Shown here piece by piece: positions 2,122 to 55,083 of a stretch of DNA of 64,000 nucleotides. Location of the stretch: NCBI RefSeq assembly GCF_045037415.1, contig NZ_CP173438.1. The stretch is one strand, 5' to 3'. The DNA comes from Escherichia coli (GTDB lineage Bacteria; Pseudomonadota; Gammaproteobacteria; Enterobacterales; Enterobacteriaceae). The number at the start of each line of letters is the position of its first letter. Positions within the stretch are counted from its first letter, which is position 1. The notes under the pieces are model-generated. The model did not search any database, had not been told where the DNA came from, and was given only the letters and a program-made list of their open reading frames with translations. The position numbers and the translations under genes are program-made.

Positions 2122-2160
2122 AATGCTCTCCTGTTGAACTTACGCCTTACCGCCGTTTAC

Positions 2161-3612: not shown

Positions 3613-3645
3613 TGGGTACGTTTCCTTATTGTTATTCGTAGAGGT

Positions 3646-5865: not shown

Positions 5866-5911
5866 AGCCCATCCTTTGTTATCAACTTGTTATTTGCGTT
5901 GATAAAGACAA

Positions 5912-5927
5912 AGCAATGGGTGTGCCA
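5912..5927 (-). promoter_or_regulatory. Sigma-54 (RpoN) promoter of prpBCDE: TGGCAC-N5-TTGCT on the minus strand
   Basis: Plus strand reads agcaatgggtgtgcca, reverse complement TGGCACACCCATTGCT with GG and GC elements at the canonical -24/-12 spacing, ~45 bp upstream of prpB ATG. Confidence 0.8.
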
Positions 5928-6001
5928 CAATTGCCTTAATAAAATTAAACATTTAATTTCAATGAGTTAAAGATAAATTCATGAAGTAATCCGCAAATAT
6001 G

Positions 6002-6059
6002 CGTTTCAGTTAACGTTTCAGGCAATGTTTCACCGCGTTTCATTGCAACAATTATGAAA
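6002..6059. promoter_or_regulatory. Candidate PrpR enhancer (UAS) repeats in the prpR-prpB divergent region
   Basis: Direct repeats cgtttcag(6002-6009)/cgtttcag(6014-6021) and a palindrome GTTTCAT-N9-ATGAAAC (6037-6059) lying 80-150 bp upstream of the sigma-54 promoter; binding not proven from sequence. Confidence 0.4.
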
Positions 6060-6103
6060 CAAGACTAAACCCAATATTCGGTTTCTTAACTTTGCGGTGC
6101 GCT

Positions 6104-7691: not shown

Positions 7692-7791
7692 ACTGCCGAA
7701 TGCAGCGCGAACGCTTTATCCGGCATAAATTTCGATAGATGATGATCACCGATAAACTAACGCATCGGGGATGTTTACATAGGATTCAGAA

Positions 7792-8067
7792 TTACTTCTT
7801 CTTATAAATATTTGCCGTGCCGTGGATCTTATTGTCAGTTTGACCAGAGGTCAGTACCAACACATCAGCCCCTTTTTCATCGGCTTTTTTGATCAAATCT
7901 TCTTTCGCATCTGCGGTCGACATTTCATTACTGGTTGAAATATCACCTATTTTTTCATATTGCGATGCAACCTTTTCAAATTCCGCTTTGGTCATTAATT
8001 CTGCGGCATAGACATTGGTAACGGCAAACGCTAACGCACCGACTAACATTTTAGAGATTATTTTCAT
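7792..8067 (-). CDS. yahO: Small periplasmic protein YahO (DUF1471 family), signal peptide
   Basis: 91 aa ORF with N-terminal signal peptide ([21 protein letters not shown]); position next to prpR as in K-12. Confidence 0.85.
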
Positions 8068-8213
8068 ATTACGGCTCCAGAGTTGTTATCACACTATCAC
8101 CCACCCACATTATTGGGTTGATTAATAATTAGTTCAGTCAGGGCATAAACGCCAGTAACCGGAAATAAGACACTTTGTGATCTCTCTCGCACCCGATTAT
8201 TTTTGGTAGAAAT

Positions 8214-8885
8214 ATGATGAAGTTACTTCACTTATTTATGGATGAAATCACTATGGATCCTTTGCACGCCGTTTACCTGACCGTAGGATTGTTCGTGATT
8301 ACTTTTTTTAATCCGGGAGCCAATCTCTTTGTGGTAGTACAAACCAGCCTGGCTTCCGGTCGACGCGCGGGGGTGTTGACCGGGCTGGGCGTGGCGCTGG
8401 GCGATGCATTTTATTCCGGGTTGGGTTTGTTTGGTCTTGCAACGCTAATTACGCAGTGTGAGGAGATTTTTTCGCTTATCAGAATCGTCGGCGGCGCTTA
8501 TCTCTTATGGTTTGCGTGGTGCAGCATGCGCCGCCAGTCAACACCGCAAATGAGCACACTACAACAACCGATTAGTGCCCCCTGGTATATCTTTTTCCGC
8601 CGTGGATTAATTACCGATCTCTCTAACCCGCAAACCGTTTTATTTTTTATCAGTATTTTCTCAGTAACATTAAATGCCGAAACACCAACATGGGCACGAT
8701 TAATGGCCTGGGCGGGGATTGTGCTCACATCAATTATCTGGCGAGTCTTTCTAAGCCAGGCGTTTTCTTTGCCCGCTGTGCGTCGTGCTTATGGGCGTAT
8801 GCAACGCGTTGCCAGTCGGGTTATTGGTGCAATTATTGGTGTATTCGCGCTACGCCTGATTTACGAAGGGGTGACGCAGCGGTGA
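8214..8885 (+). CDS. yahN: LysE/RhtB-family amino acid exporter
   Basis: 223 aa hydrophobic ORF with LysE-type N-terminus; synteny. Confidence 0.85.
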   Translation: MMKLLHLFMDEITMDPLHAVYLTVGLFVITFFNPGANLFVVVQTSLASGRRAGVLTGLGVALGDAFYSGLGLFGLATLITQCEEIFSLIRIVGGAYLLWFAWCSMRRQSTPQMSTLQQPISAPWYIFFRRGLITDLSNPQTVLFFISIFSVTLNAETPTWARLMAWAGIVLTSIIWRVFLSQAFSLPAVRRAYGRMQRVASRVIGAIIGVFALRLIYEGVTQR

Positions 8886-9692
8886 GCAGATAATTTACTC
8901 TCTACGTAATCAACCTGATTTGCCGAATCCCAACCATCGGCGATGATAGCCCCCGTAATGCGTGGTCCTTATTTCCGATAAGTTTACTTGAGTCTTTAGC
9001 TTCCCATTTCAGCCTACTCTCCCCTGTGTGGGCTTTTTCATTGGTCTGACCCGTCCTGAATAGCCAAACAATGGCAATGTTCCACTTTGCAGGGATGATA
9101 ATAAGGGGATCTGATTCAGAAGAGTTTTGAAAAGTTGGACCGCCATCGAGGCCTCGAACCCCGTACCATACAACAATCCTGGTTGTCGTCTGCTCTTCCT
9201 GATGAGCTAATGGCGGTTTTTGATATGAGCCTTACAGCATATTTTCTGTCAGGCTTGAGTGCGATGCGTAAGATACAGAAAAGCCCCCACACAAACATGA
9301 TGGAATTATGATTTTTTTCATATGAATGTCAACCCACACATTCACAAAACATCTGTATGAGAACATTTTTTATACACCATATAGCTGCGAAACCACTGCT
9401 GGTGCTTTTTTAAGCGAAACTTCGTCGATCACAACAAAATATCGGCGAAAAAGGAGGGGGAATGCCATTTGGCATACAGATATACAGATGAAATGATGAC
9501 CTGCTTTGCGATTCACTCTCTGGTGGAATAACAACTTGCAGGTGGCTCTCTTAAATAAAAATAAACGTCGCAGATAATAAAGCTCTGATTAAACCAGACA
9601 CTATCAGAAATCGCTCATAACTAACGTGTAAAGTAGTAGAGTTAATTTAACAATCTGAATTTACGCTATAGGTTTACCACTACTTTGATATT

Positions 9693-9732
9693 ATTTCGCT
9701 CTCCTTAACTAAAAAGTTAAGGAGAGCGAAAT
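9693..9732 (-). terminator. Perfect 17 bp stem-loop (ATTTCGCTCTCCTTAAC-taaaaa-GTTAAGGAGAGCGAAAT) 36 bp downstream of yahK stop; probable terminator
   Basis: Exact inverted repeat read directly from sequence; no clean U-tract, so terminator function is uncertain. Confidence 0.45.
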
Positions 9733-9768
9733 TAATATGTTAAACCACAGGATATTTATTAATTTTTT

Positions 9769-10818
9769 TCAGTCTGTTAGTGTGCGATTATCGATAACAA
9801 AACGATATTTCACATCACCACGCAGCATTCGCTCATAGGCTTCATTAATTTGATCGGCCCGAATCATCTCTATATCAGCCACGATGCCATGTTCGGCGCA
9901 AAAATCGAGCATCTCCTGAGTTTCTGGAATGCCGCCAATCATAGAACCAGCTATCGCGCGGCGTTTCATGATCAGGTTGAAAACTTCCGGCGATTTATGC
10001 GGTGTCGCAGGCGCACCAACCAGCGTTATGGTGCCATCGCGCTTCAGCAAGGTGGTAAAATCGTCGAGATTATGTGGCGCAGCTACTGTATTCAAAATGA
10101 AATCGAAACTCTTCACATGAGCCACCATCTCATCGGCATTGCGTGAGTTAACAACTTCATCGGCCCCCAGGGCTTTTGCCGCTTCGCGTTTTGACTCAGA
10201 AGTGGTAAATGCCACCACATGCGCCCCCATCGCGTGGGCCAGTTTAATCCCCATATGTCCCAGACCGCCGATGCCGACCACGCCCACTTTTTTACCCGGC
10301 CCGGCCTGCCAGTGGCGTAGCGGCGAGTACGTGGTGATTCCTGCACACAATAAAGGAGCCACCGCCGCCAGCTGCTCTTGCGGGTGACGAATACGCAGAA
10401 CATATCGCTCATGAACGACGATCTGTTGTGAGTAGCCTCCCAGAGTATGGCCCGGTTCATCCGGTGTCGGCGAGTTATAGGTTCCGGTCATGTGATCACA
10501 GTAGTTTTCCAGCCCGTCTTCACACTCTTCGCAATGTTTACAACTGTCGACAATGCAGCCGACACCGACCAGATCGCCCGGCGCATGTTTTTCTACCTGA
10601 TCACCAACGGCTACCACGCGCCCCACAATTTCATGACCCGGCACGCAGGGGTAAACCGTCCCCGCCCACTCCGAACGGACCTGGTGGAGATCGGAATGGC
10701 AGACGCCACAGTAAGCGATTTCGATTTTGACATCATGCGGTCCCGGTTCACGCCGGGTGATATCCATCGGTTCAAGCGGTTGTTTAGCGGAATATGCACC
10801 AACAGCTTTGATCTTCAT
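9769..10818 (-). CDS. yahK: NADPH-dependent aldehyde reductase, zinc-type alcohol dehydrogenase family
   Basis: 349 aa ORF; Zn-ADH signature GHEIVGRV and CxxC structural-zinc cysteines seen. Confidence 0.9.
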   Translation of the reverse strand: MKIKAVGAYSAKQPLEPMDITRREPGPHDVKIEIAYCGVCHSDLHQVRSEWAGTVYPCVPGHEIVGRVVAVGDQVEKHAPGDLVGVGCIVDSCKHCEECEDGLENYCDHMTGTYNSPTPDEPGHTLGGYSQQIVVHERYVLRIRHPQEQLAAVAPLLCAGITTYSPLRHWQAGPGKKVGVVGIGGLGHMGIKLAHAMGAHVVAFTTSESKREAAKALGADEVVNSRNADEMVAHVKSFDFILNTVAAPHNLDDFTTLLKRDGTITLVGAPATPHKSPEVFNLIMKRRAIAGSMIGGIPETQEMLDFCAEHGIVADIEMIRADQINEAYERMLRGDVKYRFVIDNRTLTD

Positions 10819-28944: not shown

Positions 28945-29508
28945 ATGACGAGAAAATATCTCACACAGGATGAAGTCTACAGGCTGATGGATGCAGCCCA
29001 GAGCATGTCCTTTCCTGAAAGAAATCGCTGTCTAATTATGATGGCTTTCATTCACGGTTTTAGGGCCAGTGAACTTCTTGATTTACGTTTATCCGATATT
29101 GATGCATCTGGAAAACAACTTAATATTCGGCGTATTAAAAATGGTTTCTCGACAACACATCCTCTTCTTCCTGATGAATATAATTTGATCAAGTTGTGGC
29201 TTAAGCAGAGGAAGTTAATTGAAAACGGAGTTGAAGGAGACTGGCTTTTTCTCTCCCGGAAACGCCGCCCTATCAGCAGACAACATTTTTTTTCTATCAT
29301 TCGTGAGGCTGGAAAACGTGCAGGATTAGCTGTAAAAGCACATCCTCATATGTTACGTCATGCCTGTGGTTTTGCTCTGGCTGACAATGGTGTCGATACC
29401 CGACTACTTCAGGATTATCTGGGTCATCGAAATATTCAGCATACTGTCAGATACACAGCCAGTAATGCTGCTCGTTTTAAAGGGGTGTGGAAAAAAAAGC
29501 CTCGTTAA
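28945..29508 (+). CDS. FimB/FimE-type site-specific tyrosine recombinase (phase-variation recombinase, IpuA-like)
   Basis: ORF 28906-29508, probable start MTRKYLTQDEV; strong similarity by eye to FimE (LLDLRLSDID, INIRRIKNGFSTTHPL, HPHMLRHACGFALA, LGHRNIQHTVRYTASNAARF) including catalytic R-H-R-Y residues. Confidence 0.85.
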   Translation: MTRKYLTQDEVYRLMDAAQSMSFPERNRCLIMMAFIHGFRASELLDLRLSDIDASGKQLNIRRIKNGFSTTHPLLPDEYNLIKLWLKQRKLIENGVEGDWLFLSRKRRPISRQHFFSIIREAGKRAGLAVKAHPHMLRHACGFALADNGVDTRLLQDYLGHRNIQHTVRYTASNAARFKGVWKKKPR

Positions 29509-29520
29509 AACAGTACCTTC

Positions 29521-29798
29521 TGATTCAAAATGTCAGATTCCTACGTTTTCCTCAATTCTTCCATAAAAAAACAGCCCATTCAATTAAATAAAACACATAA
29601 CATGTTGATATTTCTAGCTAAAGTAAAATAACCCTATGATTTGAAATGATTAATCACAAAGGTCATACCAGTGATTAACTTTCGCCCATATCGTTAAATA
29701 ACACAAAATTAAAAACAATAAAAATCAAACAAATTAGATTTATATTCCAAGAAAATTAAATATTCAGGCTATTAAACCAAACCTGACATTTTGAATCA
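29521..29798. other. Candidate invertible DNA element (phase switch): 278 bp segment bounded by perfect 16 bp inverted repeats
   Basis: TGATTCAAAATGTCAG at 29521-29536 and its exact reverse complement CTGACATTTTGAATCA at 29783-29798; right end also forms palindrome CCTGACATTTTGAATCAAAATGTCAGG (29782-29808); lies between recombinase stop (29508) and regulator start (29838); internal sequence very AT-rich. Confidence 0.6.
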
Positions 29799-29837
29799 AA
29801 ATGTCAGGTTTTGTAGCAATGGCGTGGACGAGTCTGA

Positions 29838-30632
29838 ATGAAGAAGCCTCTGGTTATTATCAGTGCCTGTCAGTTCACCAGGCTGGCACTGGAGTCTCTC
29901 ATCCCAACGGACAGGTATATCGTGCGGGTGTACAGCAACGTCACTACAGAGGTTGAATTCGTTTTAAAGACCTCCTGTGGCTACCTGTTAGCTGATATCC
30001 CTTCGCTTCCTTCGGGGGAGTTGGTTCTTCTGGCTTGTCTCGCCCGTTTGCGGAGTGATGCCGGGCAATGGCAGGTCTGCCTGACCGGTGACTCCGACTG
30101 GTTCGATAATGCTCCTGCTGCAAGTCTGTATAACGGCTTCCCACGCATCGGCACCATGCTGACAGCGAGTCGTTATCAGAATCAAATTATCCGCTGGTTA
30201 CTGCGTCCTTTGCCCGGCGATATGAGCGATTTCTGGCTCCTGACTGCACGGGAGTTGAGCGTGCTTAAGATTCTGATGCAGGGCATGAGTTTCAGTGAGA
30301 TTGCCCGTTATGAACAACGCAGTTCAAAGACCCTGCATGCGATTGCCACACGGGCTTTAATGAAACTTGGACTGAGAACACTGAGCGATTTCAGGCTGCT
30401 CTATACGGGATGCGGTGACAGCAGAGTGAAACGGAATATACGGCTACATGCAAAATATATCGGACAACATTCCGCTCATCGACTCACTCAGTATGTGCAG
30501 AACATGGTATCCGGAATCCTTTATCCAGAGAAAGTTGCCGTTGGTGAATCAATAAATTCTGACGCCATTTCCGGAAAAGTACTTTCCGGACAAAGAAAAA
30601 ATATATCTAAAAAAAGACCAGGATTGTTATGA
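29838..30632 (+). CDS. LuxR/EcpR-like transcriptional regulator (IpuR-like)
   Basis: 264 aa ORF; C-terminal LuxR-type HTH (LTARELSVLKILMQGMSFSEIARYEQRSSKTLHAIATRALMKLGL); immediately downstream of the candidate switch. Confidence 0.75.
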   Translation: MKKPLVIISACQFTRLALESLIPTDRYIVRVYSNVTTEVEFVLKTSCGYLLADIPSLPSGELVLLACLARLRSDAGQWQVCLTGDSDWFDNAPAASLYNGFPRIGTMLTASRYQNQIIRWLLRPLPGDMSDFWLLTARELSVLKILMQGMSFSEIARYEQRSSKTLHAIATRALMKLGLRTLSDFRLLYTGCGDSRVKRNIRLHAKYIGQHSAHRLTQYVQNMVSGILYPEKVAVGESINSDAISGKVLSGQRKNISKKRPGLL

Positions 30633-30785
30633 CACAGCAGCGTTGTTACTACCACCCACTGCGGCGCACACGGACTCGCTACAGTGTAGGAGCCAAAATA
30701 TTTCTACTGTTCTGGGCTGCAGGATTGGGAGGCATGCTGTACAGCCTGTACAGCGTGCTGGCGTACTGACATCTGTGAGGGAAGG

Positions 30786-31547
30786 ATGCGTTTCGTTCTT
30801 TTCTGTCCCTCAGGAATTGTACCAGCGCAGTTCGCAGCTCTATCAACCGGTTCTGTCGGCAATGTTACCTGCATAAGAACAGAAGAGGAGTTACGCAATA
30901 AATTGCGGCACAGGCCACAGAGTGTCGTGATATCGGCAGGGCGACCTGCCGAATGCGCTGAAATGTGGTTCCGATTTTATCTGGATCACTCATTCGTGGT
31001 GGTGTTGTGCGTCGCGCCCTTTTTTCTGCCACCGGATGTGAGTATTTCTGGCGTTCTCAAAAACCTGAGGTTACTGAAACCAGGAATGTCAGTAGAGCGT
31101 GTCATCAGTATTGCAAATGCCTCTGGTGGGTTTTCAGGACTGAAACATGCAGAAAATTTGCCAGTTATGGACTGTTACTCTGTCTTTATGAAAGAGGTGA
31201 ATAACCGCACAAAGACAATCGTCATGTCAGAACGCTTCCCGGAAAAGCAAAAGAAGGTGTTGTCGTTGCTTCTTGCCGGACACAGCTGGGAATACAGTGC
31301 GCAGTTTCTCAAAACGGGGATAAGACAGATATGGCTTGCCGAGCAGTCGCTAAAAAAGCGTTGGGGGATACCGGACAGCATGTCATTGCGGGAAGCCCTG
31401 CTGCTGAGCAGCAATAATTTTCACGGTGATGGAAATGCATTGGAAACAACGAATGCCATGACATTGCGTGAAAACGGAAATACCAACAGGTATTCCGTGG
31501 TGGTAAATGCAGGGACGCAGGCTTTATCTCTGCATAAATATAAATAA
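30786..31547 (+). CDS. Second regulator-like protein with degenerate LuxR-type HTH
   Basis: 253 aa ORF; C-terminal region KQKKVLSLLLAGHSWEYSAQFLKTGIRQIWLAEQSLKKRWGI resembles a LuxR HTH; true start uncertain. Confidence 0.5.
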   Translation: MRFVLFCPSGIVPAQFAALSTGSVGNVTCIRTEEELRNKLRHRPQSVVISAGRPAECAEMWFRFYLDHSFVVVLCVAPFFLPPDVSISGVLKNLRLLKPGMSVERVISIANASGGFSGLKHAENLPVMDCYSVFMKEVNNRTKTIVMSERFPEKQKKVLSLLLAGHSWEYSAQFLKTGIRQIWLAEQSLKKRWGIPDSMSLREALLLSSNNFHGDGNALETTNAMTLRENGNTNRYSVVVNAGTQALSLHKYK

Positions 31548-31588
31548 GTGGGAAATTGAAATTAGTTACCAGAATGGAGAATTTCTTC

Positions 31589-41861: not shown

Positions 41862-42746
41862 TCAATCATGTATTTTTACAGCAAGACAACCACGAACAAA
41901 CTCAGGATTAAAATGTTTTACCGATTCCCCAACATAACCCAAATCTAGCGAACTAATTTGCGCCATTTCTTTCTCTGTCAGTGAGAAATCCCAGATAGCA
42001 AAATTTTCTTCGATACGCTGTTGATGTGTCGATTTCGGAATAACGACCACTCCCCGTTGAATATTCCAACGCAGAATGACCTGAGAAATCGATTTTTGAT
42101 GGGCATCTGCAATACTCTGAAGCAGATTATTTTCAAAGGGTTTATGTCGTCCACCACCTAACGGAGCCCATGCTTCAGGCTGCACGTTATAATACTTCAT
42201 GGTTGCCAGCGCCTCTGGTTGGGCAAAATAGGGATGCAACTCGACCTGGTTGACCATCGGTTTAACTCTTACCGTTTCACAAAAGTTCGCCAGAACATGA
42301 GGGTAGAAATTGGAAACCCCAATCGCTTTTAATTTGCCCTCTTCATAGGCATCTTCGAGTGCACGCCACGCACTAAAATAATCGCGCATGGCCTGGTGCA
42401 ATAAATAGAGATCGAAGTATTCTAGCCCCGATTTTTTTAATGATGCTTCAATACCTGCTGCTGCAATATCCTGATTCAACATATCCTGCACCCACAATTT
42501 AGACGTTATAAATAACTCTTCTCGGGTACATAAACCTTCAGATATGGCTTCACGAACGGCTTCACCGACGGCATCTTCATTACCGTATACCGCTGCAGTG
42601 TCGATGAGTCGATAACCCGTGCGGATAGCATTCAACACTGACTGTTTGCACACGTCTTTATCGGTAACCTGAAAAACACCAAATCCCATCATCGGCATTT
42701 TCAGATTGTTACTTAATACGGAAAATTCCACTGTCAGTCCCTCCAT
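41862..42746 (-). CDS. Aldo-keto reductase (DkgA-like NADPH-dependent reductase)
   Basis: 294 aa ORF; AKR motifs ([27 protein letters not shown]); N-terminus parallels DkgA. Confidence 0.85.
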   Translation of the reverse strand: MEGLTVEFSVLSNNLKMPMMGFGVFQVTDKDVCKQSVLNAIRTGYRLIDTAAVYGNEDAVGEAVREAISEGLCTREELFITSKLWVQDMLNQDIAAAGIEASLKKSGLEYFDLYLLHQAMRDYFSAWRALEDAYEEGKLKAIGVSNFYPHVLANFCETVRVKPMVNQVELHPYFAQPEALATMKYYNVQPEAWAPLGGGRHKPFENNLLQSIADAHQKSISQVILRWNIQRGVVVIPKSTHQQRIEENFAIWDFSLTEKEMAQISSLDLGYVGESVKHFNPEFVRGCLAVKIHD

Positions 42747-42945
42747 TAGGTATGAACAATGAGTCTACGTTAAAACGTAACCTCAAATTAGTATGTGGAT
42801 TTTGATATCACTTATGCAAAAAATTCATTAATAATGTAGGACTGAAACCTCTCTATTTTTGGGGCAATGAAGCAGACGCTATCAGTGCTTTTGCCTTGGG
42901 ACTTGCTGTTTTTGATACACTTAGGGCCCAGGACATAACGAAAAT

Positions 42946-43836
42946 GTGCGATATGACAAAGAATTAACGGAGTATGTGATGATCAGGCAGAAGATTCTAC
43001 AGCAGCTCCTGGAGTGGATTGAGTGCAATCTTGAGCACCCTATTTCAATCGAAGATATCGCACAGAAATCTGGCTACAGCAGACGCAACATCCAGCTTCT
43101 GTTCCGAAATTTCATGCATGTGCCTTTGGGAGAATACATTCGCAAACGAAGGCTTTGTCGTGCCGCCATTCTTGTCCGGCTCTCCGCGAAATCTATGCTT
43201 GATATTGCACTCTCTTTGCATTTTGATTCACAGCAGTCATTCAGCCGCGAATTTAAAAAGTTATTCGGCTGCTCTCCCCGTGAATACCGCCACCGTGATT
43301 ATTGGGATCTCGCAAATATCTTCCCTTCTTTTTTAATACGTCAACAGCAAAAGACGGAGTGTAGATTAGTCAACTTTCCTGAGACACCTATTTTTGGCAA
43401 TTCATTTAAATATGATATTGAAGTGTCGAATAAATTACCGGATGAAGAAGTCAAACTGCGACGTCATCATTTAGTCAGATGTATGAAGAATTTTAAGACG
43501 GATATCTATTTCGTCTCCACGTTCGAACCATCAACAAAATCGGTCGATTTGCTCACAGTTGAAACTTTTGCCGGTACGGTATGCAAACAAACCGATTCAG
43601 AGATGCCGAAAGAGTGGACAATTAACCGAGGACTGTATGCCTCTTTCCGCTATGAAGGTGAGTGGGAGCACTACCCTGAATGGGCGCGAAACCTCTATCT
43701 GATGGAATTACCTGCCAGGGGGTTAGCCAGAGTGAACGGCAGTGATATTGAGCGATTTTATTACAATGAAAACTTCGTCGAAATTGATAGCAATAACATT
43801 GTTTGCGAAATTTTTATCCCCGTTCGCCCGGTTTAG
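42946..43836 (+). CDS. ykgA: AraC-family regulator with C-terminal GyrI-like effector domain
   Basis: 296 aa ORF (start could be 42979 MIRQK); AraC HTH (ISIEDIAQKSGYSRRNIQLLFRN... SFSREFKKLFGCSPREYR). Confidence 0.75.
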   Translation: MRYDKELTEYVMIRQKILQQLLEWIECNLEHPISIEDIAQKSGYSRRNIQLLFRNFMHVPLGEYIRKRRLCRAAILVRLSAKSMLDIALSLHFDSQQSFSREFKKLFGCSPREYRHRDYWDLANIFPSFLIRQQQKTECRLVNFPETPIFGNSFKYDIEVSNKLPDEEVKLRRHHLVRCMKNFKTDIYFVSTFEPSTKSVDLLTVETFAGTVCKQTDSEMPKEWTINRGLYASFRYEGEWEHYPEWARNLYLMELPARGLARVNGSDIERFYYNENFVEIDSNNIVCEIFIPVRPV

Positions 43837-43960
43837 CCTGTAACTCCATCACATAAGATTTACCCTACCCTGCCACCGTCTAATCGGTGCCAGGGTAGGT
43901 ATTCAGTAAATAATGGCGCTGCGCATGTCAACGCCATTATTATTTATTACATCGTCGTTT

Positions 43961-46900
43961 TTATTTCTCCTCAGCACCTTCAGTATCTGCAGGAACGGCG
44001 TTAATTGTCACAGTCACGGGTTTCATTTCATACCCTCCATATGTCAAAGAGTTGAATGTGAATGTGTATGTACCTGGCTTGTTGGTACTAAATGTACGCG
44101 TGATTTTCCCGCTCGCGAAATGGTCATTTTTCGACGGCAGGAACTGATAATCCGCCTCTGTCACCCCTTCCGGAGCCTCAATGTCGACCCACATGGTTCC
44201 TCCTACCGGGTTGTTTGCCGAGAACAGGGTTACCGTCAGTGTTGCTGTCGTTACCCCATCCGCCACCAGAGAATGCACATCAGATGTTGCGGCGAGCTCC
44301 GCGTTTTTATCATCCGCGACGAATTTAGATTCGGCAGTTTTCGTCGATTCCTGACCGTCGGCCTGTTCCACTTTCGCCGTGAGTGTATATGTCGCTGCGA
44401 CAGTGGTCGTGGCGGTGAAAATAGCCTGCCCTTGCTCATTCGTTGTCGCCGTCCCATTGGGAGTCAGAACTAAATTTTCCGGGCTGGCAGTCAGCGTCAC
44501 TTCGCTATCTTTCAGCAGGTTGTTATTGGCATCAGTCACCGTAACTTTATACGTCTGTTTGGTTTTGCCGTCCGCCACTGCACGGTTGCCAATCACCTCA
44601 ATACTGGAGATGGTCGCCGTAGTCTTATCGGCCACAAACGTTACAGACTGCGCATTCGAAGGCTGGTCATTTCCTGCTGACGCCGTGATCTCATAGGTTC
44701 CGGCAGTCACGGAAACCACCTGCAACTCCGCTTTCCCCTCATCGTTGGCTTTCACCCACACATTATCGCCTGTAAGCGGCTTGACACCCCGGGGCAGATT
44801 AAAGGTCACCAGGCTCCCTGGAACAGGGTTACCATTTTTATCCTCAACGTTCGCCGTCAGCGTAAAGGCATCTTTGCCGTTTGCCACTTTTTGAACGGCG
44901 GTGTCTACCTGCAGGTTTGCCTGACCGGTGCTGGCATCCGCGTTGAATTTCACCGTGACCGTCTTCTGAGCACCATTCACCGAAGCGGAAATATTGTGTT
45001 CTCCCGCAACCGTTGACATAAGCTCAATGTCCACTTTCCCTGCCGCATTGGTTGTTACTGTATTCCCCGTCTTGCTGGTCACACCCTGCGGTAAAGTCAG
45101 CGTAACTTCTTGCCCCTGCAACGGGTTACCATAGCTGTCCACGACGGTCAGGGTTATCTGGTTAGCAGACTGTCCATTAGCCAGTTGGTTATTAACCTTC
45201 ACTGTCATATCACGAATCTCAGCCTTAGATGCGTCACCTGCAACATTCAGCACCAGTGGCTGAGCAACGGCATTTTGGCCGTTCACTCGCGGCATCACAG
45301 ACAACTGACCCGCGGCAGATCCCAGCGTTAAGGTCGACACGTAGACCCCATTACCTTTCTCTGTCCAGTTTCCTGCTGAAGGACGCTCACTCCCCGTGCT
45401 GGCGGCACCACTAAACACTGGTGCATCTGGCTTCAGCCCGGTGACCGGATTCCCGTACGCATCCTTCACGGTGAAGGTGAGTTCCGTCGTCGTTTTAACC
45501 GTTGGAGTTTTATTGTCCGCAACAAGCGTAGAGTTCGCTGATGACATCTCTCCGGCAATAACAGTCAGCTGCGCGGCTTCGGTGGCTGCAGGCTGGCCGT
45601 TGAAGAGCGGCATGACACGAAGCTCGCCCGTCTTTCCGCCTGTAGTTAACGTAGCAACATAGGAACCGTCACCTTTTTCGGTCCAACTGGAAACGGTCGC
45701 CCCTTCAGAGGCGGTCCCCGTCAAACTTGCCGACAACGAAAGACCACTGATAGCGTTGCCATGCGCATCTTTCGCCACCAGCGTTACGGTTGTGCTTTCA
45801 CCGGCTTTTACGTGATCTTCTGCGACAGAGACTTTCGACTGGTTTGAAGATAATGCATCAGCCACCACGGTTACTTTTGCCGCATTCGCTGCCGCGTCCT
45901 GCCCATTGAGCTTCGGCATAACGTCTAATTCACCCGCCGTAGTGCCGAGAGAAATCTGCGCAATCCAGGTCCCGTCGCCATTATCCGTCCAGCCTGATGC
46001 CGTAGAACCAGCAGCAGCTGCGCCCGATAATGACGGTGCATCCGGATTGAGGCCAGTTACAGGGTTGTCATTAGCATCTTTTGCCGTCCAGATTGCCGTA
46101 ACTGTACCGCCAACCACCGGTTTATCAGGATTCAGGGTGATGGACGAATGTGCTGCATCAAGCGGCCCGGCAACAAACTTCAGCGTTTGTTGTAACGTGC
46201 CCAGCTGATACTGCTCGCTGAAGGCACGCACAACAACGTTCCCGGCACGGGTCGAAGAAACCGTGGCGCTGTAAACCCCTGGTTTTATTTCCGAAATGGC
46301 ACCAACGGTTACACCATTAGTGTCTTGCGGAACAAGTCGCAGGCGGCTGGCTTCTCCCGTCACCGGATTACCCTCGGAGTCCACCGCTGTCAGTGTCAGC
46401 GTGTAGGCTTGCTGACCATCAGCAACCACATCACCTGACGGCTCGTTAGCGCTCAGGGTGGAGTTTGCCACATCCATCATCGTGGCCCGCAGTTCTGCAG
46501 TGACAGTTTTGCTCATGTCATCAACGCTAACAGTAATCGTTGCCTCACCTGACTGCGTTCCGGTAGTAAAGACAGACTGATACACCCCTGATTCAGTTTC
46601 GGTGAACTCACCCAGTGTTGGCTTTGCCTGTGATTTAGTGGCCTTCAGGGTACGAGTCACAATATTTCCAGCCGGTTTGAAGGTTAGTTCAGTCTTGATC
46701 TGATCTTTCATGCCCGTGACTGGCTGACCCTCGGCGTCGCGCAGAGACAGCACCAGCGGCTTTTGCTCATTACCGTTAGCAAGCATTTGAATACGGCTCT
46801 GACCGTCAAGCGTTAACGCCGTACGATCGGCGCTCATACCAGCTCCGCTAATAACCACTTCTGTCTGCACACGTTTCGAGGCATTGCCTTTGTTATCGTA

Positions 46901-48208
46901 GGCAATCGCTGAAATCGCATAATAATTGTCTTTGCCTGCCTGATAAGCCGGGAGCGTCACTTGCCACTGATTGCCCTGCCCCGTAATTTTTCCGCCTGCG
47001 GCCAGCAAAGACGGCGCTTCCCATTGCACATTTTTCAGACCGTGAGTTGCTTTGCTGACCACAAGCCCCAGGGAAACCGTCTGGCCGCCCTTGCCTTCAA
47101 TACGCTCAGGCAGAGCAATACGGATCACTTCAGATTTGCGATACTCAAGAACGATATTGTTATTACGCTCAACCAGGTCATAGCGGCTGCCTGCCAGCAT
47201 TCGACGCTCGCGAATGCTGTCTGTATCGAGTTGTTTTTCCAGAGGTTCGCCAATCCGATAATTAACTTCCAGGCCAAAGCGAGTGTCATTCTCACCACTC
47301 TTGCCCTGCTTATGCCCGGCACTCAGGGTCAGAAGAGGCACTGGCGTGTAATTCACTTCAGCGGTAATCGCATGTGGATCTTTCTGGCGTTTATCTTTAC
47401 CAAACAGCCCGACTTCATCGCCATAATACTGTTCATACATGAGGCTTGCGCCAAGCTGCGGCCAGGCAGGTAAATAGCCCTCAGCACGAATATCCCAGCC
47501 ATTCGCCGGGCGTTCCTGATAATCCTCAACATCCGGCGATTTTTTCCAGCCAGAAGCCCGGATATAACCATTGGCGCTCAGTTTCAAATAATCACGCCAG
47601 TATTCCGCACCAACACCAATGCGGGTATGACTACGGGATAAATCATGATCGATAAAAGTATTCACCCCCGCCATCCAGTCATTTTCTGAAAAATGACGCC
47701 AGCCAAAACCAATATTTGACTGAGTACGATCGTCGGTACGATGTATTGCCCCCTGAGTGAACAACATATTTGTCGGTGTATCATAAATCGGATAAAGCAT
47801 TTCCAGCGAAGAGTCCTTCAGCGAGAAATTTTTATCGACATTCAGTTTGACGCGCGCAGTACCGTATTTCCCGAGCCACTCCTGAATTTCCTGGTTAGCT
47901 TTAGCGGTGGCCATTCCGGTAATAAAGTTACGTGTCGCATCGCTATCTGGCTGACTGCTTAAAAATGTCCCGGCATTAGCGGCAAGCGACGCGACATTTT
48001 TCTCCACGTTATTATTAGCAGTTACCGTAGTATTTTCCATGCTCAACCGTGGCTGAACCGCATGCTGCGCACGTGCTGCCATTACTGGCGTAAAGGTGAC
48101 TGCGAGTGGAAAAAGAACCTGAACAGAGATATTTGCCCACGCCACGCAGCGGGCCAGAACTGAATAACGAAATCGTGGCTGTTTATTGTCTGTTTTATAA
48201 CGTGACAT
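43961..48208 (-). CDS. fdeC: Intimin/invasin-family outer-membrane adhesin (FdeC/EaeH), intact
   Basis: 1415 aa uninterrupted ORF; N-terminal beta-barrel region and repeated Ig-like units (e.g. recurring VMPxxNGQxAxAxxAxxTV). Confidence 0.9.
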   Translation of the reverse strand: MSRYKTDNKQPRFRYSVLARCVAWANISVQVLFPLAVTFTPVMAARAQHAVQPRLSMENTTVTANNNVEKNVASLAANAGTFLSSQPDSDATRNFITGMATAKANQEIQEWLGKYGTARVKLNVDKNFSLKDSSLEMLYPIYDTPTNMLFTQGAIHRTDDRTQSNIGFGWRHFSENDWMAGVNTFIDHDLSRSHTRIGVGAEYWRDYLKLSANGYIRASGWKKSPDVEDYQERPANGWDIRAEGYLPAWPQLGASLMYEQYYGDEVGLFGKDKRQKDPHAITAEVNYTPVPLLTLSAGHKQGKSGENDTRFGLEVNYRIGEPLEKQLDTDSIRERRMLAGSRYDLVERNNNIVLEYRKSEVIRIALPERIEGKGGQTVSLGLVVSKATHGLKNVQWEAPSLLAAGGKITGQGNQWQVTLPAYQAGKDNYYAISAIAYDNKGNASKRVQTEVVISGAGMSADRTALTLDGQSRIQMLANGNEQKPLVLSLRDAEGQPVTGMKDQIKTELTFKPAGNIVTRTLKATKSQAKPTLGEFTETESGVYQSVFTTGTQSGEATITVSVDDMSKTVTAELRATMMDVANSTLSANEPSGDVVADGQQAYTLTLTAVDSEGNPVTGEASRLRLVPQDTNGVTVGAISEIKPGVYSATVSSTRAGNVVVRAFSEQYQLGTLQQTLKFVAGPLDAAHSSITLNPDKPVVGGTVTAIWTAKDANDNPVTGLNPDAPSLSGAAAAGSTASGWTDNGDGTWIAQISLGTTAGELDVMPKLNGQDAAANAAKVTVVADALSSNQSKVSVAEDHVKAGESTTVTLVAKDAHGNAISGLSLSASLTGTASEGATVSSWTEKGDGSYVATLTTGGKTGELRVMPLFNGQPAATEAAQLTVIAGEMSSANSTLVADNKTPTVKTTTELTFTVKDAYGNPVTGLKPDAPVFSGAASTGSERPSAGNWTEKGNGVYVSTLTLGSAAGQLSVMPRVNGQNAVAQPLVLNVAGDASKAEIRDMTVKVNNQLANGQSANQITLTVVDSYGNPLQGQEVTLTLPQGVTSKTGNTVTTNAAGKVDIELMSTVAGEHNISASVNGAQKTVTVKFNADASTGQANLQVDTAVQKVANGKDAFTLTANVEDKNGNPVPGSLVTFNLPRGVKPLTGDNVWVKANDEGKAELQVVSVTAGTYEITASAGNDQPSNAQSVTFVADKTTATISSIEVIGNRAVADGKTKQTYKVTVTDANNNLLKDSEVTLTASPENLVLTPNGTATTNEQGQAIFTATTTVAATYTLTAKVEQADGQESTKTAESKFVADDKNAELAATSDVHSLVADGVTTATLTVTLFSANNPVGGTMWVDIEAPEGVTEADYQFLPSKNDHFASGKITRTFSTNKPGTYTFTFNSLTYGGYEMKPVTVTINAVPADTEGAEEK

Positions 48209-48758
48209 TGAGATAATTTCCTGATGAACGAATTAACGAACATAGGCAGACACAAATAATGGCGTCTGCTTGTCAGAAAAACCGGGGATTTCCCGGTTTC
48301 CTTTTCCACAGAAAAGGAAATACCTTTATGTAAGAAAGTACACCGCCACCTAATATATCCAGTGTCTGTAGCCACTCATCAGGTGGTTGGGCGCGGGATT
48401 ATATTTTTATTTATGGGTAAAAATTTAGCTTTTTGTGCAAGTCATTAAATAGATACTTAAGTTATATTTCTTACTCTGCGGGCAGTGAATAATTCATTAT
48501 CCAGAGTGAATAATAATGACCCGTCTTTAATTAACTGCTATTGGGAGTACGTCGAAGTAAGTATATACGCCGGGATAAACCAATATATTTTTTATGGACA
48601 TTCATTTTTATTCATCGGACTGTAAATTCCGGGGATATCGAACTTGCACGACTAATCTCAACCCTCAAACAGATTTATGAATTTTGTTCATAACCCCTGA
48701 CAAATCCTGCCGTCTAATCGAGCTCTTCCCTTTACGTTATGCTTCTCATGAACGATAA

Positions 48759-51682
<2,924 letters not shown>

Positions 51683-51764
51683 CTAAACTTTCAGGAGATT
51701 TATTATGAATAAACGTATTCTCACGATTGCGCCATTCTTCTTACCGATATTCTGACACACATCA

Positions 51765-52691
51765 TTAACTTTCTATTTTTACTCTTTTCTCCACCATAAA
51801 ATCAATAAAAGCACGAACTTTAGAGGGCATTCTCACCCGAGATGAAACATATATATAAAATCCAGGAAATGAAACGGCCCAATCCTCAAGAATCGGCTGT
51901 AACTTGCCCGCATTGATATGTTCAGCGATTGCAAAATCCAGATGTTGAATGATACCCGTTCCATTCAGCGCCATTCGTATCATGCTTTCGTCATCATTAG
52001 AAATATACTTACCTGACACCTCTATTTCGAACTCTTCATTACCCCCCACAACATTCGAAAACTCCCATGCTGAGAGTGCACCGCTACTTTTATGCCGCAA
52101 CCGAAGACAATTATGGTTACTCAATTCCTGAGGAGTTTCAGGAATACCGTGTTCTTTTAAATAATCTGGCGATGCCACAGTAACCAGTTTAATAAGCGGA
52201 GAAACAGGAATGGCAGTCATATGCTCATCCAGTCCTTGCTCAAGACGTATGCCCACATCACAGCCGTCCGCAATAATGTTAGATAAACCGTCATCCATAA
52301 TGAGTTCTATCTTTGTTTTGGGGTAACGAGTAAGAAACTCGCCAATATGAGGCTCAACAAGCATCCTTGCTGCAACACGGGAGGAATTTATTCTCAACAG
52401 TCCTGTAGGTTCAAGTTGGGTATCACCGACATCTTTCAACGCATCATCAATTTGCCCCAAAGCCGACACCAGCACTTCATACAGATGCTGTCCTTCCTCA
52501 GTAAGCGACATATTGCGGGTTGTACGGTATATCAGCTTGGTGTTAAGACGTTCCTCAAGAGATTTTAAATTCTGGGACAATGCGGCCCGCGTAATACCCA
52601 TTTCAGAGGCTGCTCTGGAAAAACTGCCGGCACGAACAATCAGCGCAAACCAGGCAAGGGAAGGCAAAATTGAAGGCTCTATTTTCATCAT
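51765..52691 (-). CDS. LysR-family transcriptional regulator, divergent from hydrolase/OYE genes
   Basis: ORF 51765-52754; probable start MMKIEPS; HTH FSRAASEMGITRAALSQNLKSLE. Confidence 0.8.
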   Translation of the reverse strand: MMKIEPSILPSLAWFALIVRAGSFSRAASEMGITRAALSQNLKSLEERLNTKLIYRTTRNMSLTEEGQHLYEVLVSALGQIDDALKDVGDTQLEPTGLLRINSSRVAARMLVEPHIGEFLTRYPKTKIELIMDDGLSNIIADGCDVGIRLEQGLDEHMTAIPVSPLIKLVTVASPDYLKEHGIPETPQELSNHNCLRLRHKSSGALSAWEFSNVVGGNEEFEIEVSGKYISNDDESMIRMALNGTGIIQHLDFAIAEHINAGKLQPILEDWAVSFPGFYIYVSSRVRMPSKVRAFIDFMVEKRVKIES

Positions 52692-52847
52692 TGTAAACCT
52701 TAACTTAACACTGTGATAGATATTAGACCATTGATGATAACCAATACAAGTCATACTATTACGCCGTTCGCGATATGAACACGAATGCCAGTTGCGGATA
52801 ATAGAAATGATATTTAAATCTGTTTAGGCAAATCCCTGGAGCTTGAA

Positions 52848-53768
52848 ATGAAAACTGTTTCAATAAAACACACTTACTGGGATATAGCTGCTGATATCTA
52901 TTTCCCTGACGATTTTAATAGTGAAAAAAAGTATCCTGCCATTATCAGTGCCCATCCAATTGGAAGCTGCAAAGAACAGACATCGGGTAGTGTGTATGGT
53001 GCCGCCCTGGCAAAAGCTGGCTTTATCGTCATTGCTTTTAATGCCAGTTTTCAGGGAAGCAGCGGTGGAGAACCGCGTTATCTGGAAGATCCAACAATGC
53101 GAGTAAAAGACTTCAGCATTGTCGTTGATTACCTTACCACCTTACCTTACGTTGATGCCGGGCGTATTGGTGTACTGGGTATTTGTGGTGGAGGTGGATA
53201 TGCCATTAATGCCGCAATGACAGAACGTCGGATTAAAGCCATTGGTACTGTCACAGGTGCAAACTACGGGCGTCTTATGCGTGAGGGATTTACAGCGTTT
53301 AATCCTATCGGAGCACTCGAAGCAATGGCGCAACAAAGAACAGACGAAGCTAACGGCGCAAAACTTCGCGTAGATGATTTGCTTCCTTCTTCTCCGGAAG
53401 CAGCTCTTGAAGCGGGATTAACAGAAATAGACCTTTTTGAAGCAACAGAATATTATCGTTCGCCACGAGGCTGTGCGCCTAATGGGGTAAATCGTTCGCT
53501 ATTTTCACATCAGACTGTTGCCGTGGGCTGGGATGCTTTTCATCTTGCAGAAGTCCTGTTAACTCAACCACTAATGGTTGTAGTAGGCGATAGAGTGGGC
53601 GCTTTTGGTGCCTATCGTGACGGCTGCGAAATTATTGGTCGTGCAGCCTCAAAACATAAAGAGTTGGTCGTGGTTGAAGGTTATTCACATTACGACCTGT
53701 ATGATAAGCCAGAACCTGTGAAACAGGCGCTCGATAAATTAATTCCTTTTTACAAAACACATTTGTAA
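52848..53768 (+). CDS. Alpha/beta hydrolase (dienelactone hydrolase-like, Cys nucleophile)
   Basis: 306 aa ORF; nucleophile elbow GICGGGGY. Confidence 0.75.
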   Translation: MKTVSIKHTYWDIAADIYFPDDFNSEKKYPAIISAHPIGSCKEQTSGSVYGAALAKAGFIVIAFNASFQGSSGGEPRYLEDPTMRVKDFSIVVDYLTTLPYVDAGRIGVLGICGGGGYAINAAMTERRIKAIGTVTGANYGRLMREGFTAFNPIGALEAMAQQRTDEANGAKLRVDDLLPSSPEAALEAGLTEIDLFEATEYYRSPRGCAPNGVNRSLFSHQTVAVGWDAFHLAEVLLTQPLMVVVGDRVGAFGAYRDGCEIIGRAASKHKELVVVEGYSHYDLYDKPEPVKQALDKLIPFYKTHL

Positions 53769-53940
53769 TAACCTTGCAGGGAGATTCATTATCTCCCTGA
53801 CATTTATCCTTTATTGACTACACGACAATAATAAAATTACTCAAAAAGAATTCTATTAAAGGAAAAAAGCATCAAAAAGTAGCAACTCAACTTATTAAGA
53901 TTATACGCATTAAAATCAGATAAACATTTGAGGTATTGTT

Positions 53941-55083
53941 ATGACAAATAAACACCCATCATTGTTTTCTCCTTTTATGCTGACAGAAAAAATAAAGCTA
54001 CGTAATCGTATCGTTATGGCTCCTATGACAACCTGGTCAGCTAATCCTGATGGAACCATCTCTGAGCAAGAACTCGAATTTTATAAACGTCGCTCACAAA
54101 ATGTTGGTTTAGTAATAACAGGATGTACCTATGTCACGCCAAGCGGCATTGGGTTTACTCATGAATTTGCCGCGTATGACGACCGTTTCATTAACAGCCT
54201 TGAAAAGTTAGCAGCTGCAGCCAAAAGTGGCGGTGCTCCGGCTATTTTGCAGATTTTCCACGCCGGTAATAAAGCCATCCCGGAGCTTGTGCCAAATTAC
54301 GATGTTATTAGTGCCAGCGCATCAAGCGTAAAATCTGGTGACTTTATGAAGAGAGTGGTACAAAGCAGGGAAATGACTGAAAACGAAATTCAGGAAACCA
54401 TTAGAGCATTCGGAGATGTCACAAAAAGGGCGATTAAAGCAGGTTTTGATGGCGTTGAACTTCATGGTGCGCACGGATTCCTTCTGCAGAATTTCTTCTC
54501 CCCTCTATTTAACCAGCGTAATGACCGATGGGGAGGAGATCTTGAAGGACGTATGCGCTTCCCGCTGGCCGTATTACAGGAAGTAAAAAATGTAGTCTAT
54601 GAATATGCGACAAAGCCCTTTGCTATCGGTTACAGAATATCTCCTGAAGAATCTGTAACAGGGGGACTGCGGATAGAGGATACTTATAAACTCCTTGATC
54701 GGCTCATTTCATCCGGTATTTCGTATATACATACCTCGCTGGTCAGTATTAACGATAGCTACCCTGTTGAGTCGCCAAATGGTCCCCGAACTATTGAATT
54801 GATTTTAAATCATATTGCAGGCAGAGTGCCGGTAATCGCCGCAGGTAAAATACGCACACCGTCTCAGGCTCAAGAAGCAATTTCCGCTGGCCTGCCACTT
54901 GTTGCGATCGGTAAAGGGCTGGTGATAAATCCAGAATGGGTGACTTTAGCTGAATCAGGTAGAAGTCATGAAATTCAAACAGCCCTTAATCCACAACGCG
55001 TTCCTGAATTAACCATTCCGGATAAACTATGGGATCAAATTCAGGCATCGAAAGGAACTGGCTGGTTTCCGTTAATGGATTAA
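53941..55083 (+). CDS. NADH:flavin oxidoreductase (Old Yellow Enzyme family)
   Basis: 380 aa ORF; OYE-type TIM-barrel motifs (MAPMTT, ILQIFHAGN, GVELHGAHGFLL). Confidence 0.85.
   Translation: MTNKHPSLFSPFMLTEKIKLRNRIVMAPMTTWSANPDGTISEQELEFYKRRSQNVGLVITGCTYVTPSGIGFTHEFAAYDDRFINSLEKLAAAAKSGGAPAILQIFHAGNKAIPELVPNYDVISASASSVKSGDFMKRVVQSREMTENEIQETIRAFGDVTKRAIKAGFDGVELHGAHGFLLQNFFSPLFNQRNDRWGGDLEGRMRFPLAVLQEVKNVVYEYATKPFAIGYRISPEESVTGGLRIEDTYKLLDRLISSGISYIHTSLVSINDSYPVESPNGPRTIELILNHIAGRVPVIAAGKIRTPSQAQEAISAGLPLVAIGKGLVINPEWVTLAESGRSHEIQTALNPQRVPELTIPDKLWDQIQASKGTGWFPLMD

What the first reader, a model, noticed from the sequence alone, without database searches (positions are those of the whole stretch)
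43961..48208. Intact 1415 aa intimin-like adhesin FdeC (EaeH)
From memory, in K-12 this gene is disrupted by an IS element; here it is one uninterrupted ORF with N-terminal beta-barrel features and a long series of Ig-like repeats. This indicates a non-K-12 strain with a functional adhesin. The repeat array is a likely site of recombinational length variation.
Basis: partly seen in the sequence, partly recalled or inferred. Interest (0 to 1): 0.45.

Follow-up and report, generated by a model that had tools for sequence, protein, structure and literature searches.

The report
Intact fdeC adhesin gene, already known
This is a complete copy of fdeC, a well-studied E. coli surface adhesin gene found intact in most non-laboratory strains, so the finding is correct but ordinary.

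Summary
Window 43961-48208 holds one uninterrupted 1415-codon ORF, on the minus strand. It is fdeC (eaeH), the inverse-autotransporter adhesin. It is 100% identical to the annotated fdeC of E. coli DSM 111506, and 412 of 414 residues match the crystallised FdeC fragment 4E9L. The protein has a long N-terminal signal-like segment, an inverse-autotransporter beta-barrel (aa 76-357), and ten Ig-like domains (aa 358-1405). It has no LysM domain and no lectin-like tip.

The K-12 recollection is partly right. MG1655 keeps only the first 876 nt. IS3 replaces 3693 bp: the rest of fdeC, the spacer and the 3' end of ykgA. That is an IS-flanked deletion, not a simple insertion, and the pseudogene status was published in 2012.

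The idea of a recombination-prone repeat array is not supported. The domains are 17-45% identical to each other. The gene has no DNA repeat longer than 24 nt. Six distinct sequenced alleles are 1415-1418 aa. Whole-domain length variants exist but are rare. Variation instead takes the form of mosaic allelic divergence, concentrated in the distal domains.

Verdict: already known, low interest.

The parts
43961..48208 (-). fdeC (eaeH) coding sequence, 1415 aa plus stop, intact
   Evidence: ORF list and translation. 100% identical to annotated fdeC WP_000092552.1.
48068..48208 (-). N-terminal extended signal-peptide-like segment (about aa 1-47): a basic N-region, a hydrophobic core at aa 17-44, then VMA-ARA
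   Evidence: Hydropathy scan. The cleavage site is inferred, not predicted with a dedicated tool.
47138..47983 (-). Inverse-autotransporter beta-barrel domain (aa 76-357)
   Evidence: PF11924 matched at aa 76-350, E 4.8e-110, covering profile positions 3-279 of 279. Invasin 4E1T and intimin 4E1S beta-domains match aa 113-357, E 4.6e-85 and 9.2e-73.
43994..47137 (-). Passenger of ten Ig-like (Big_1/Invasin_D3) domains. D1 to D10 start at aa 358, 454, 574, 679, 782, 884, 989, 1088, 1191 and 1296, and the array ends at aa 1405.
   Evidence: Pfam, linker-motif boundaries and pairwise identities of 17-45%, PDB sequence matches, and an AF2 model of D9-D10.
45185..46426 (-). Segment equal to the crystallised FdeC region B (aa 595-1008, PDB 4E9L)
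   Evidence: 412 of 414 residues identical, E 2e-257.
48209..48773 (.). AT-rich (about 38% GC) divergent intergenic region between fdeC and an aldo/keto reductase gene; presumed fdeC promoter region
   Evidence: Composition and annotation. About 90% identity between lineages versus 97-99% in the flanks. The promoter itself was not mapped here.
43837..43960 (.). 124-bp spacer between convergent fdeC and the ykgA-like gene, with two strong hairpins (probable terminators)
   Evidence: RNA fold -51.3 kcal/mol, z = -5.95. The terminator role is inferred.
43640..47332 (.). Stretch that is missing in K-12 and replaced there by IS3
   Evidence: blastn of the window against K-12 locus L002. MG1655 annotation shows eaeH pseudogene, IS3A, ykgA pseudogene.
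42979..43836 (+). ykgA-like AraC-type helix-turn-helix regulator gene, convergent with fdeC, intact here
   Evidence: Annotation of the identical record. HTH_18, HTH_AraC and GyrI-like domains in the syntenic gene of a relative.

Best explanation
The ORF is an intact allele of fdeC (eaeH), the prototype FdeC-type inverse autotransporter (type Ve secretion) adhesin of E. coli.

Proposed mechanism. Steps marked [shown] rest on sequence or structure results here. Steps marked [literature] or [inferred] do not.
- A long N-terminal signal-like segment directs Sec export [inferred from hydropathy].
- Residues 76-357 form an outer-membrane beta-barrel like those of intimin and invasin [shown by profile and PDB matches].
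- Barrel insertion is helped by BAM/TAM [literature, PMC4943183].
- The C-terminal passenger is threaded out through the barrel and folds outside into a rod of ten Ig-like domains ending in an Ig-like tip, not a lectin-like tip [shown].
- The exposed rod binds epithelial cells and collagens I, III, V and VI, and promotes bladder and kidney colonisation [literature, PMC3324786].
- Transcription starts from an AT-rich upstream region. It is kept low in culture and rises with host contact or high temperature [literature, not tested here].

Between lineages the gene varies by mosaic allelic exchange and faster amino-acid change in the distal domains. It does not vary by changes in domain number.
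For: - Intact 1415-aa ORF.
- 5077 of 5426 complete E. coli genomes match, 4585 of them over at least 80% of the gene, annotated fdeC.
- 100% identity to NZ_CP192202.1 over 27 kb around the gene and 99.995% over the rest of the window.
- PF11924 plus Big_1 and Invasin_D3 domains.
- PDB 4E9L (FdeC) matches 412 of 414 residues, and the intimin and invasin barrels match aa 113-357.
- AF2 model of aa 1186-1415: pLDDT 89.9, two all-beta domains. Best PDB matches are tandem Ig-like domains of intimin, InvE, invasin and InvD.
- Synteny: ecp operon, ykgMO and ykgR upstream; ykgA-like gene and rclCBA-rclR downstream.
- dN/dS is 0.04-0.07 in the barrel, 0.11-0.17 in D1-D6 and 0.25-0.40 in D7-D10.
- Identity is mosaic: 76-100% per 250 nt inside the gene versus mostly 96-100% in the flanking genes further out.
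- Function and K-12 pseudogene status are published (PMC3324786; PMC4943183; PMC11143625).
Against: Nothing contradicts the identification.

Caveats:
- Expression and adhesive function of this particular allele were not tested and cannot be tested with these tools.
- Signal-peptide cleavage was judged only by hydropathy.
- NCBIfam has no FdeC-specific model among the hits. All related inverse-autotransporter models score below their cut-offs, so the name rests on near-identity to named and crystallised FdeC rather than on a curated HMM.
Confidence: 0.97

Rival explanations
1. The Ig-like domain array is a hot spot for unequal homologous recombination, so strains commonly differ in domain number.
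For: Rare domain-sized variants exist in the protein collection. There are in-frame deletions of 91-107 aa, 152-156 aa and 196-222 aa, and a 1627-1630-aa class with 213 extra residues inserted exactly at the D5/D6 boundary.
Against: - No tandem repeats and no direct DNA repeats longer than 24 nt in the gene.
- Domains are only 17-45% identical at protein level.
- Six distinct alleles spanning 92-100% identity are 1415-1418 aa.
- Clusters holding about 24,400 of about 24,800 listed member sequences have representatives of 1413-1420 aa (my own addition of the member counts in that table).
- The 213-aa insert is only 33-38% identical to its neighbouring domains, so it is not a recent duplication, and that gene sits in a different upstream context.
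- The deletion in complete genome CFSAN061761 is 665 bp, out of frame, at an imperfect microhomology. It is a pseudogenising event.
- Most deletion variants are single sequences from draft assemblies and could be assembly artefacts.
Confidence: 0.07
2. The ORF is intimin (eae), Yersinia-type invasin, or another E. coli inverse autotransporter paralogue (YeeJ, SinH, YchO) rather than FdeC.
For: [quoted passage not shown] NCBIfam models for intimin, IatC, Ilp, SinH and YchO all give significant E-values.
Against: - Every one of those NCBIfam scores is far below its curated cut-off. For example intimin_all scores 389 against 1400, and SinH scores 308 against 999.
- No LysM or Intimin_C hit.
- The tip is Ig-like, not lectin-like.
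- The neighbours are aldo/keto reductase and ykgA-like genes, not tir/cesT.
- 412 of 414 residues match crystallised FdeC.
Confidence: 0.01
3. The gene is intact but effectively silent (cryptic) in this strain, so it contributes nothing to the phenotype. Intactness would then reflect recent descent rather than use.
For: - The upstream region is AT-rich at 38% GC, the kind of DNA that H-NS silences.
- The literature reports no expression in ordinary culture, H-NS repression, and induction only on host contact or at 39 C or above (PMC3324786; PMC11143625 citing Easton 2014).
- Independent IS1, IS3 and deletion knockouts occur in other strains.
Against: - dN/dS is well below 1 over the whole gene, including 0.04-0.07 in the barrel. 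This shows long-term purifying selection.
- The gene is kept over at least 80% of its length in 4585 of 5426 complete genomes.
- Published competition experiments show a colonisation defect of the mutant (PMC3324786).
Confidence: 0.1

Closest known systems
FdeC (ECOK1_0290) of ExPEC IHE3034 / EaeH of ETEC H10407; PDB 4E9L
   Same: Same gene. The architecture is the same, 412 of 414 residues match over the crystallised region, and the chromosomal locus is the same, with reductase, hydrolase and regulator genes around it as described in PMC3324786.
   Different: 1415 aa here versus 1416 aa reported for IHE3034. This allele lacks one residue at alignment column 1311, in D10.
eaeH pseudogene (b0297) of E. 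coli K-12 MG1655
   Same: The first 876 nt are orthologous at 95.8% identity, and the position next to ykgR/ykgP is the same.
   Different: K-12 lacks fdeC nt 877-4248, the spacer and 197 bp of ykgA. IS3A sits in their place. K-12 also lacks the 6.2-kb block upstream of fdeC.
Intimin (Eae) of EPEC/EHEC and invasin of Yersinia pseudotuberculosis
   Same: The secretion logic is the same (type Ve): an N-terminal 12-stranded-type barrel homologous at E 1e-73 to 1e-85, followed by a C-terminal rod of Ig-like domains.
   Different: No LysM periplasmic domain and no C-type-lectin-like receptor-binding tip. It has ten Ig-like domains rather than about four. It is not in the LEE. The intimin HMM score is far below its cut-off.
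1630-aa FdeC-like variant (P0085 cluster)
   Same: 84% identity over the aligned residues. The same ykgA-like gene lies downstream.
   Different: It has two extra Ig-like domains (213 aa) after the D5/D6 boundary and a different upstream neighbourhood of sulfatase, radical-SAM and SbmA-like genes.

Membership tests
Inverse autotransporter (type Ve secretion) family | N-terminal IAT beta-barrel domain (PF11924) | tested here: met
   aa 76-350, E 4.8e-110, full profile coverage. The 4E1T and 4E1S barrels match aa 113-357.
Inverse autotransporter (type Ve secretion) family | Passenger lies C-terminal to the barrel and is built of Ig-superfamily (Big) domains | tested here: met
   Nine Invasin_D3 and five Big_1 stretches downstream of the barrel. 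Ten domains delimited. The AF2 model of the last two is all-beta and Ig-like.
Inverse autotransporter (type Ve secretion) family | Sec signal peptide at the N-terminus | tested here: inconclusive
   There is a basic N-region and a hydrophobic core at aa 17-44 followed by VMA-ARA. No dedicated signal-peptide predictor was available.
Inverse autotransporter (type Ve secretion) family | BAM/TAM-dependent outer-membrane assembly and surface exposure of the passenger | not testable with these tools
   Shown for CFT073 FdeC in PMC4943183. Not testable on sequence.
FdeC/EaeH orthologue group | Near-identity to experimentally characterised FdeC | tested here: met
   412 of 414 residues match 4E9L. 92-97% aa identity to the non-identical annotated FdeC alleles compared, from other lineages. 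100% identical to WP_000092552.1.
FdeC/EaeH orthologue group | Conserved chromosomal position between ecp/ykgMO/ykgR and ykgA/rcl genes | tested here: met
   Annotation of the identical record and of five other lineages. MG1655 map.
FdeC/EaeH orthologue group | Adhesion to epithelial cells and collagen; role in urinary-tract colonisation | not testable with these tools
   Literature only (PMC3324786).
Intimin (Eae) | Score at or above the curated cut-off of NCBIfam intimin_all (NF033627) | tested here: not met
   389 bits against a cut-off of 1400. The match covers only aa 57-484.
Intimin (Eae) | Periplasmic LysM domain and C-terminal C-type-lectin-like Tir-binding domain | tested here: not met
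   No LysM or Intimin_C family at E <= 0.01. The C-terminal 230 aa model as two Ig-like beta-sandwiches.
Intimin (Eae) | Location in the LEE next to tir/cesT | tested here: not met
   The neighbours are aldo/keto reductase and AraC-type regulator genes.
Yersinia-type invasin | C-terminal lectin-like integrin-binding domain (D5) | tested here: not met
   Only Ig-like domains of invasin 1CWV match (aa 1008-1140). The predicted tip is all-beta and Ig-like.

The most novel reading that the evidence does not exclude
The mosaic, faster-evolving distal domains (D7-D10, plus patches in D1 and D4) could define functionally or antigenically distinct FdeC classes that are exchanged between lineages by recombination under diversifying selection. 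Under this reading, the B2-type allele seen here would bind different host ligands, or escape antibodies raised against other alleles. That matters for FdeC-based vaccines. Rare domain-number variants, such as the 12-domain 1630-aa form, would be a second, slower axis of variation.
Probability: 0.3. Interest if true: 0.3.

Novelty: already known. Interest (0 to 1): 0.08.

Why it matters
It matters little beyond correct annotation. An intact fdeC marks the window as coming from a non-K-12 strain. The strain is probably an ExPEC-type lineage, given the near-identity to IHE3034 FdeC and the fimX-hyx island nearby. FdeC is a vaccine candidate, so the allele class could matter for antigen coverage. 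The gene, its structure, its function, its K-12 pseudogene state and its allelic variants are all published. The useful corrections are that K-12 carries an IS3-flanked deletion rather than a simple insertion, and that the domain array is not a recombinational length-variation hot spot.

Tried and rejected
- Plus-strand reading of the stated coordinates: full of stops. The gene is on the minus strand.
- Tandem Repeats Finder and the direct-repeat search inside the gene: only a 19-nt hexamer run and matches of 15-24 nt. This rejects DNA-level repeats.
- Rfam scan of 41500-51000 at E <= 1: no RNA family.
- Consensus promoter and terminator scan: counts no higher than in shuffles, so it is uninformative for the fdeC promoter.
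- Intimin, invasin, SinH, YchO, IatC and Ilp identities: all NCBIfam scores are below their cut-offs.
- The deletion in CFSAN061761, examined as a possible functional domain-loss variant: it is 665 bp and frameshifting.
- The 1630-aa variant, examined as a possible recent duplication: the inserted domains are only 33-38% identical to their neighbours.
- Easton et al. 2014 (PMC4249167) could not be read. Its content is cited only as reported in PMC4943183 and PMC11143625.
Full report
**Observation**

The ORF list shows a single ATG-to-stop ORF of 1415 aa at exactly 43961..48208, on the minus strand. The plus-strand translation of the same coordinates is full of stops. The minus-strand translation is uninterrupted and ends ...NAVPADTEGAEEK*. 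An AGGAA motif lies about 10 nt upstream of the ATG. It gave no strand.

**Identity**

- A megablast against 5426 complete E. coli genomes finds the gene in 5077 of them. In 4585 the match covers at least 80% of the gene. It is nearly always annotated 'fdeC: inverse autotransporter adhesin FdeC'.
- The window is base-for-base identical to E. coli DSM 111506 (NZ_CP192202.1) from 36961 to 64000, and 99.995% identical from 1 to 37094. That record's annotation therefore applies directly. There fdeC is WP_000092552.1, with the same start and stop.
- Residues 595-1008 match the crystallised FdeC fragment of ExPEC IHE3034 (PDB 4E9L) at 412 of 414 positions.
- Nesta et al. 2012 (PMC3324786) named and characterised this protein. 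It is 1416 aa in IHE3034 and about 95% identical to EaeH of ETEC. It binds epithelial cells and collagens I, III, V and VI. Its expression is triggered by host-cell contact. It contributes to bladder and kidney colonisation, and it is protective as a vaccine antigen.

**Anatomy**

- Pfam gives a full-length IAT_beta domain at aa 76-350 (E 4.8e-110), followed by nine Invasin_D3 and five Big_1 stretches. It gives no LysM or Intimin_C hit.
- The invasin (4E1T) and intimin (4E1S) barrels match aa 113-357. The intimin D00 domain matches aa 358-466. Invasin Ig-like domains match aa 1008-1140.
- Recurring linker motifs delimit ten Ig-like domains. They start at aa 358, 454, 574, 679, 782, 884, 989, 1088, 1191 and 1296, and the array ends near aa 1405. 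This agrees with the '10 Big domains' of Heinz et al. 2016 (PMC4943183).
- The domains are only 17-45% identical to one another. The most similar trio is D4-D6.
- An AlphaFold2 model of aa 1186-1415, built on 14 diverse homologues, has mean pLDDT 89.9. It consists of two all-beta sandwiches. Its best PDB matches are tandem Ig-like domains of intimin (D0-D1), InvE, invasin and InvD. The tip is therefore Ig-like, not the C-type-lectin-like domain of intimin and invasin.
- The N-terminus has a basic stretch and a hydrophobic core at aa 17-44. This fits the extended signal peptides of this family. The cleavage site is inferred.

**Mechanism**

The following are shown here: the barrel homology, the barrel-then-passenger order, and the Ig-like rod and tip. 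The following come from the literature: TAM-assisted assembly and protease-accessible surface exposure (PMC4943183), adhesion and collagen binding (PMC3324786), and temperature, H-NS and contact-dependent expression (PMC3324786; PMC11143625 citing Easton 2014).

Three points are inferred for this allele:
- It behaves the same way as the studied proteins.
- The 565-bp, 38%-GC upstream region carries the silenced promoter.
- The two strong hairpins in the 124-bp spacer downstream (z = -5.95) terminate the convergent fdeC and ykgA-like transcripts.

**The K-12 claim**

In MG1655 the order is eaeH pseudogene (b0297), IS3A, ykgA pseudogene (b0300). Aligning the window to a K-12 locus shows that homology stops at fdeC nt 876 (window 47333) and resumes at window 43639, inside the ykgA-like gene.

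IS3 therefore stands in place of 3693 bp. That stretch comprises fdeC nt 877-4248, the 124-bp spacer and 197 bp of the 3' end of ykgA. This is an IS-flanked deletion rather than a simple insertion. The pseudogene state was already published (PMC3324786).

A true simple insertion does occur elsewhere. Strain TUM13881 carries this very allele with an IS1 at about nt 302-311, flanked by a 10-bp duplication.

**The 'recombinational length variation' claim**

- At DNA level the gene has no tandem repeat of note and no direct repeat longer than 24 nt.
- Seven copies taken across the whole identity range (six distinct sequences, since DSM 111506 is identical to the window) encode 1415, 1415, 1416, 1416, 1417, 1418 and 1417 aa. 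They differ only by one codon in D10 and by the last two residues.
- In the protein collection, the clusters that hold nearly all member sequences have representatives of 1413-1420 aa. That is about 24,400 of about 24,800 in the top 120 clusters, by my own addition of the member counts in that table.
- Domain-sized variants do exist. There are in-frame deletions of 91-107, 152-156 and 196-222 aa, almost all single sequences. There is also a 1627-1630-aa class of about 237 member sequences with 213 extra residues inserted exactly after aa 884, the D5/D6 boundary.
- That insert is only 33-38% identical to any neighbouring domain. The gene carrying it lies in a different upstream context. It is an old, divergent form, not a recent unequal crossover.
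- The one deletion variant sampled among complete genomes (CFSAN061761) lacks 665 bp, is out of frame, and joins at an imperfect microhomology. It is a pseudogene.
- The array is therefore not a hot spot for length variation.

**What does vary**

- Nucleotide identity to this allele falls into bands. It is at least 99% in 537 records, 95-99% in 1172 and 90-95% in 3349. The flanking genes further out are mostly 96-100% identical in the same comparisons.
- Divergence inside the gene is mosaic. For example, GW-AmxH19 is 99-100% identical except for blocks of 80-93% in D7-D8 and D10.
- Divergence rises towards the tip. dN/dS is 0.04-0.07 in the barrel, 0.11-0.17 in D1-D6 and 0.25-0.40 in D7-D10.
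- This pattern is expected for an exposed antigen exchanged by recombination.
- FdeC subtypes and variant-specific adhesion are already reported (PMC4943183 Fig. 5 legend; PMC11143625).

**Comparison and verdict**

The ORF is a member of the inverse-autotransporter family and of the FdeC orthologue group. All testable defining features are met. It is not intimin or invasin. The intimin HMM score is 389 bits against a cut-off of 1400. There is no LysM domain, no lectin-like tip and no LEE context.

Nothing about the gene is new. The finding is a correct identification of a known, widespread gene. Two details need correction: the nature of the K-12 lesion and the supposed repeat instability. Interest is low.

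Noticed in passing
window 48760-54991: A 6.2-kb block lies directly upstream of fdeC. It holds two aldo/keto reductase genes, two LysR regulator genes, an alpha/beta hydrolase gene and an NADH-dependent flavin oxidoreductase gene. It is absent from K-12, EC590, KO11FL (W) and CFSAN061761. K-12's ykgP pseudogene corresponds to the 3' end of the flavin oxidoreductase gene, so those lineages lost the block rather than this strain gaining it. O157:H7 has a third arrangement.
   Followed up: partly
window about 28945-33880: This stretch holds ipbA (fimX/hbiF, a tyrosine DNA invertase), hyxR, hyxA and hyxB (an autotransporter). From memory, this island is typical of ExPEC. It fits the B2-like fdeC allele.
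   Followed up: no
window 41991-42715: This part of an aldo/keto reductase gene downstream of the ykgA-like gene is intact here. It is deleted in K-12 (ykgQ pseudogene), EC590 and CFSAN061761.
   Followed up: partly
window 43837-43960: Two strong hairpins lie in the 124-bp spacer between convergent fdeC and the ykgA-like gene (MFE -51.3 kcal/mol, z = -5.95). This spacer and the gene ends next to it are only 70-80% identical to the O157, EC590 and W alleles.
   Followed up: partly
window 47898-47907 (equivalent site in L003): Strain TUM13881 carries the identical fdeC allele, interrupted by an IS1 with a 10-bp target duplication. This is an independent, simple IS knockout of the same gene.
   Followed up: yes
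L011-L013, gene at 5001-9893: A 1630-aa FdeC-like protein has two additional Ig-like domains. It is flanked upstream by sulfatase, radical-SAM maturase-like and SbmA-like genes, and downstream by the same ykgA-like regulator gene. It may be a lineage-specific long form of FdeC.
   Followed up: partly
window about 56460-56685 and about 8903-9147: ykgL and yahM are annotated as frameshifted pseudogenes in the identical genome record.
   Followed up: no
window 43913-44473 (+) and other plus-strand ORFs inside fdeC: Several ORFs of 60-186 aa lie antisense to fdeC. None is annotated in the identical RefSeq record. They are most likely chance ORFs opposite a long coding region.
   Followed up: no
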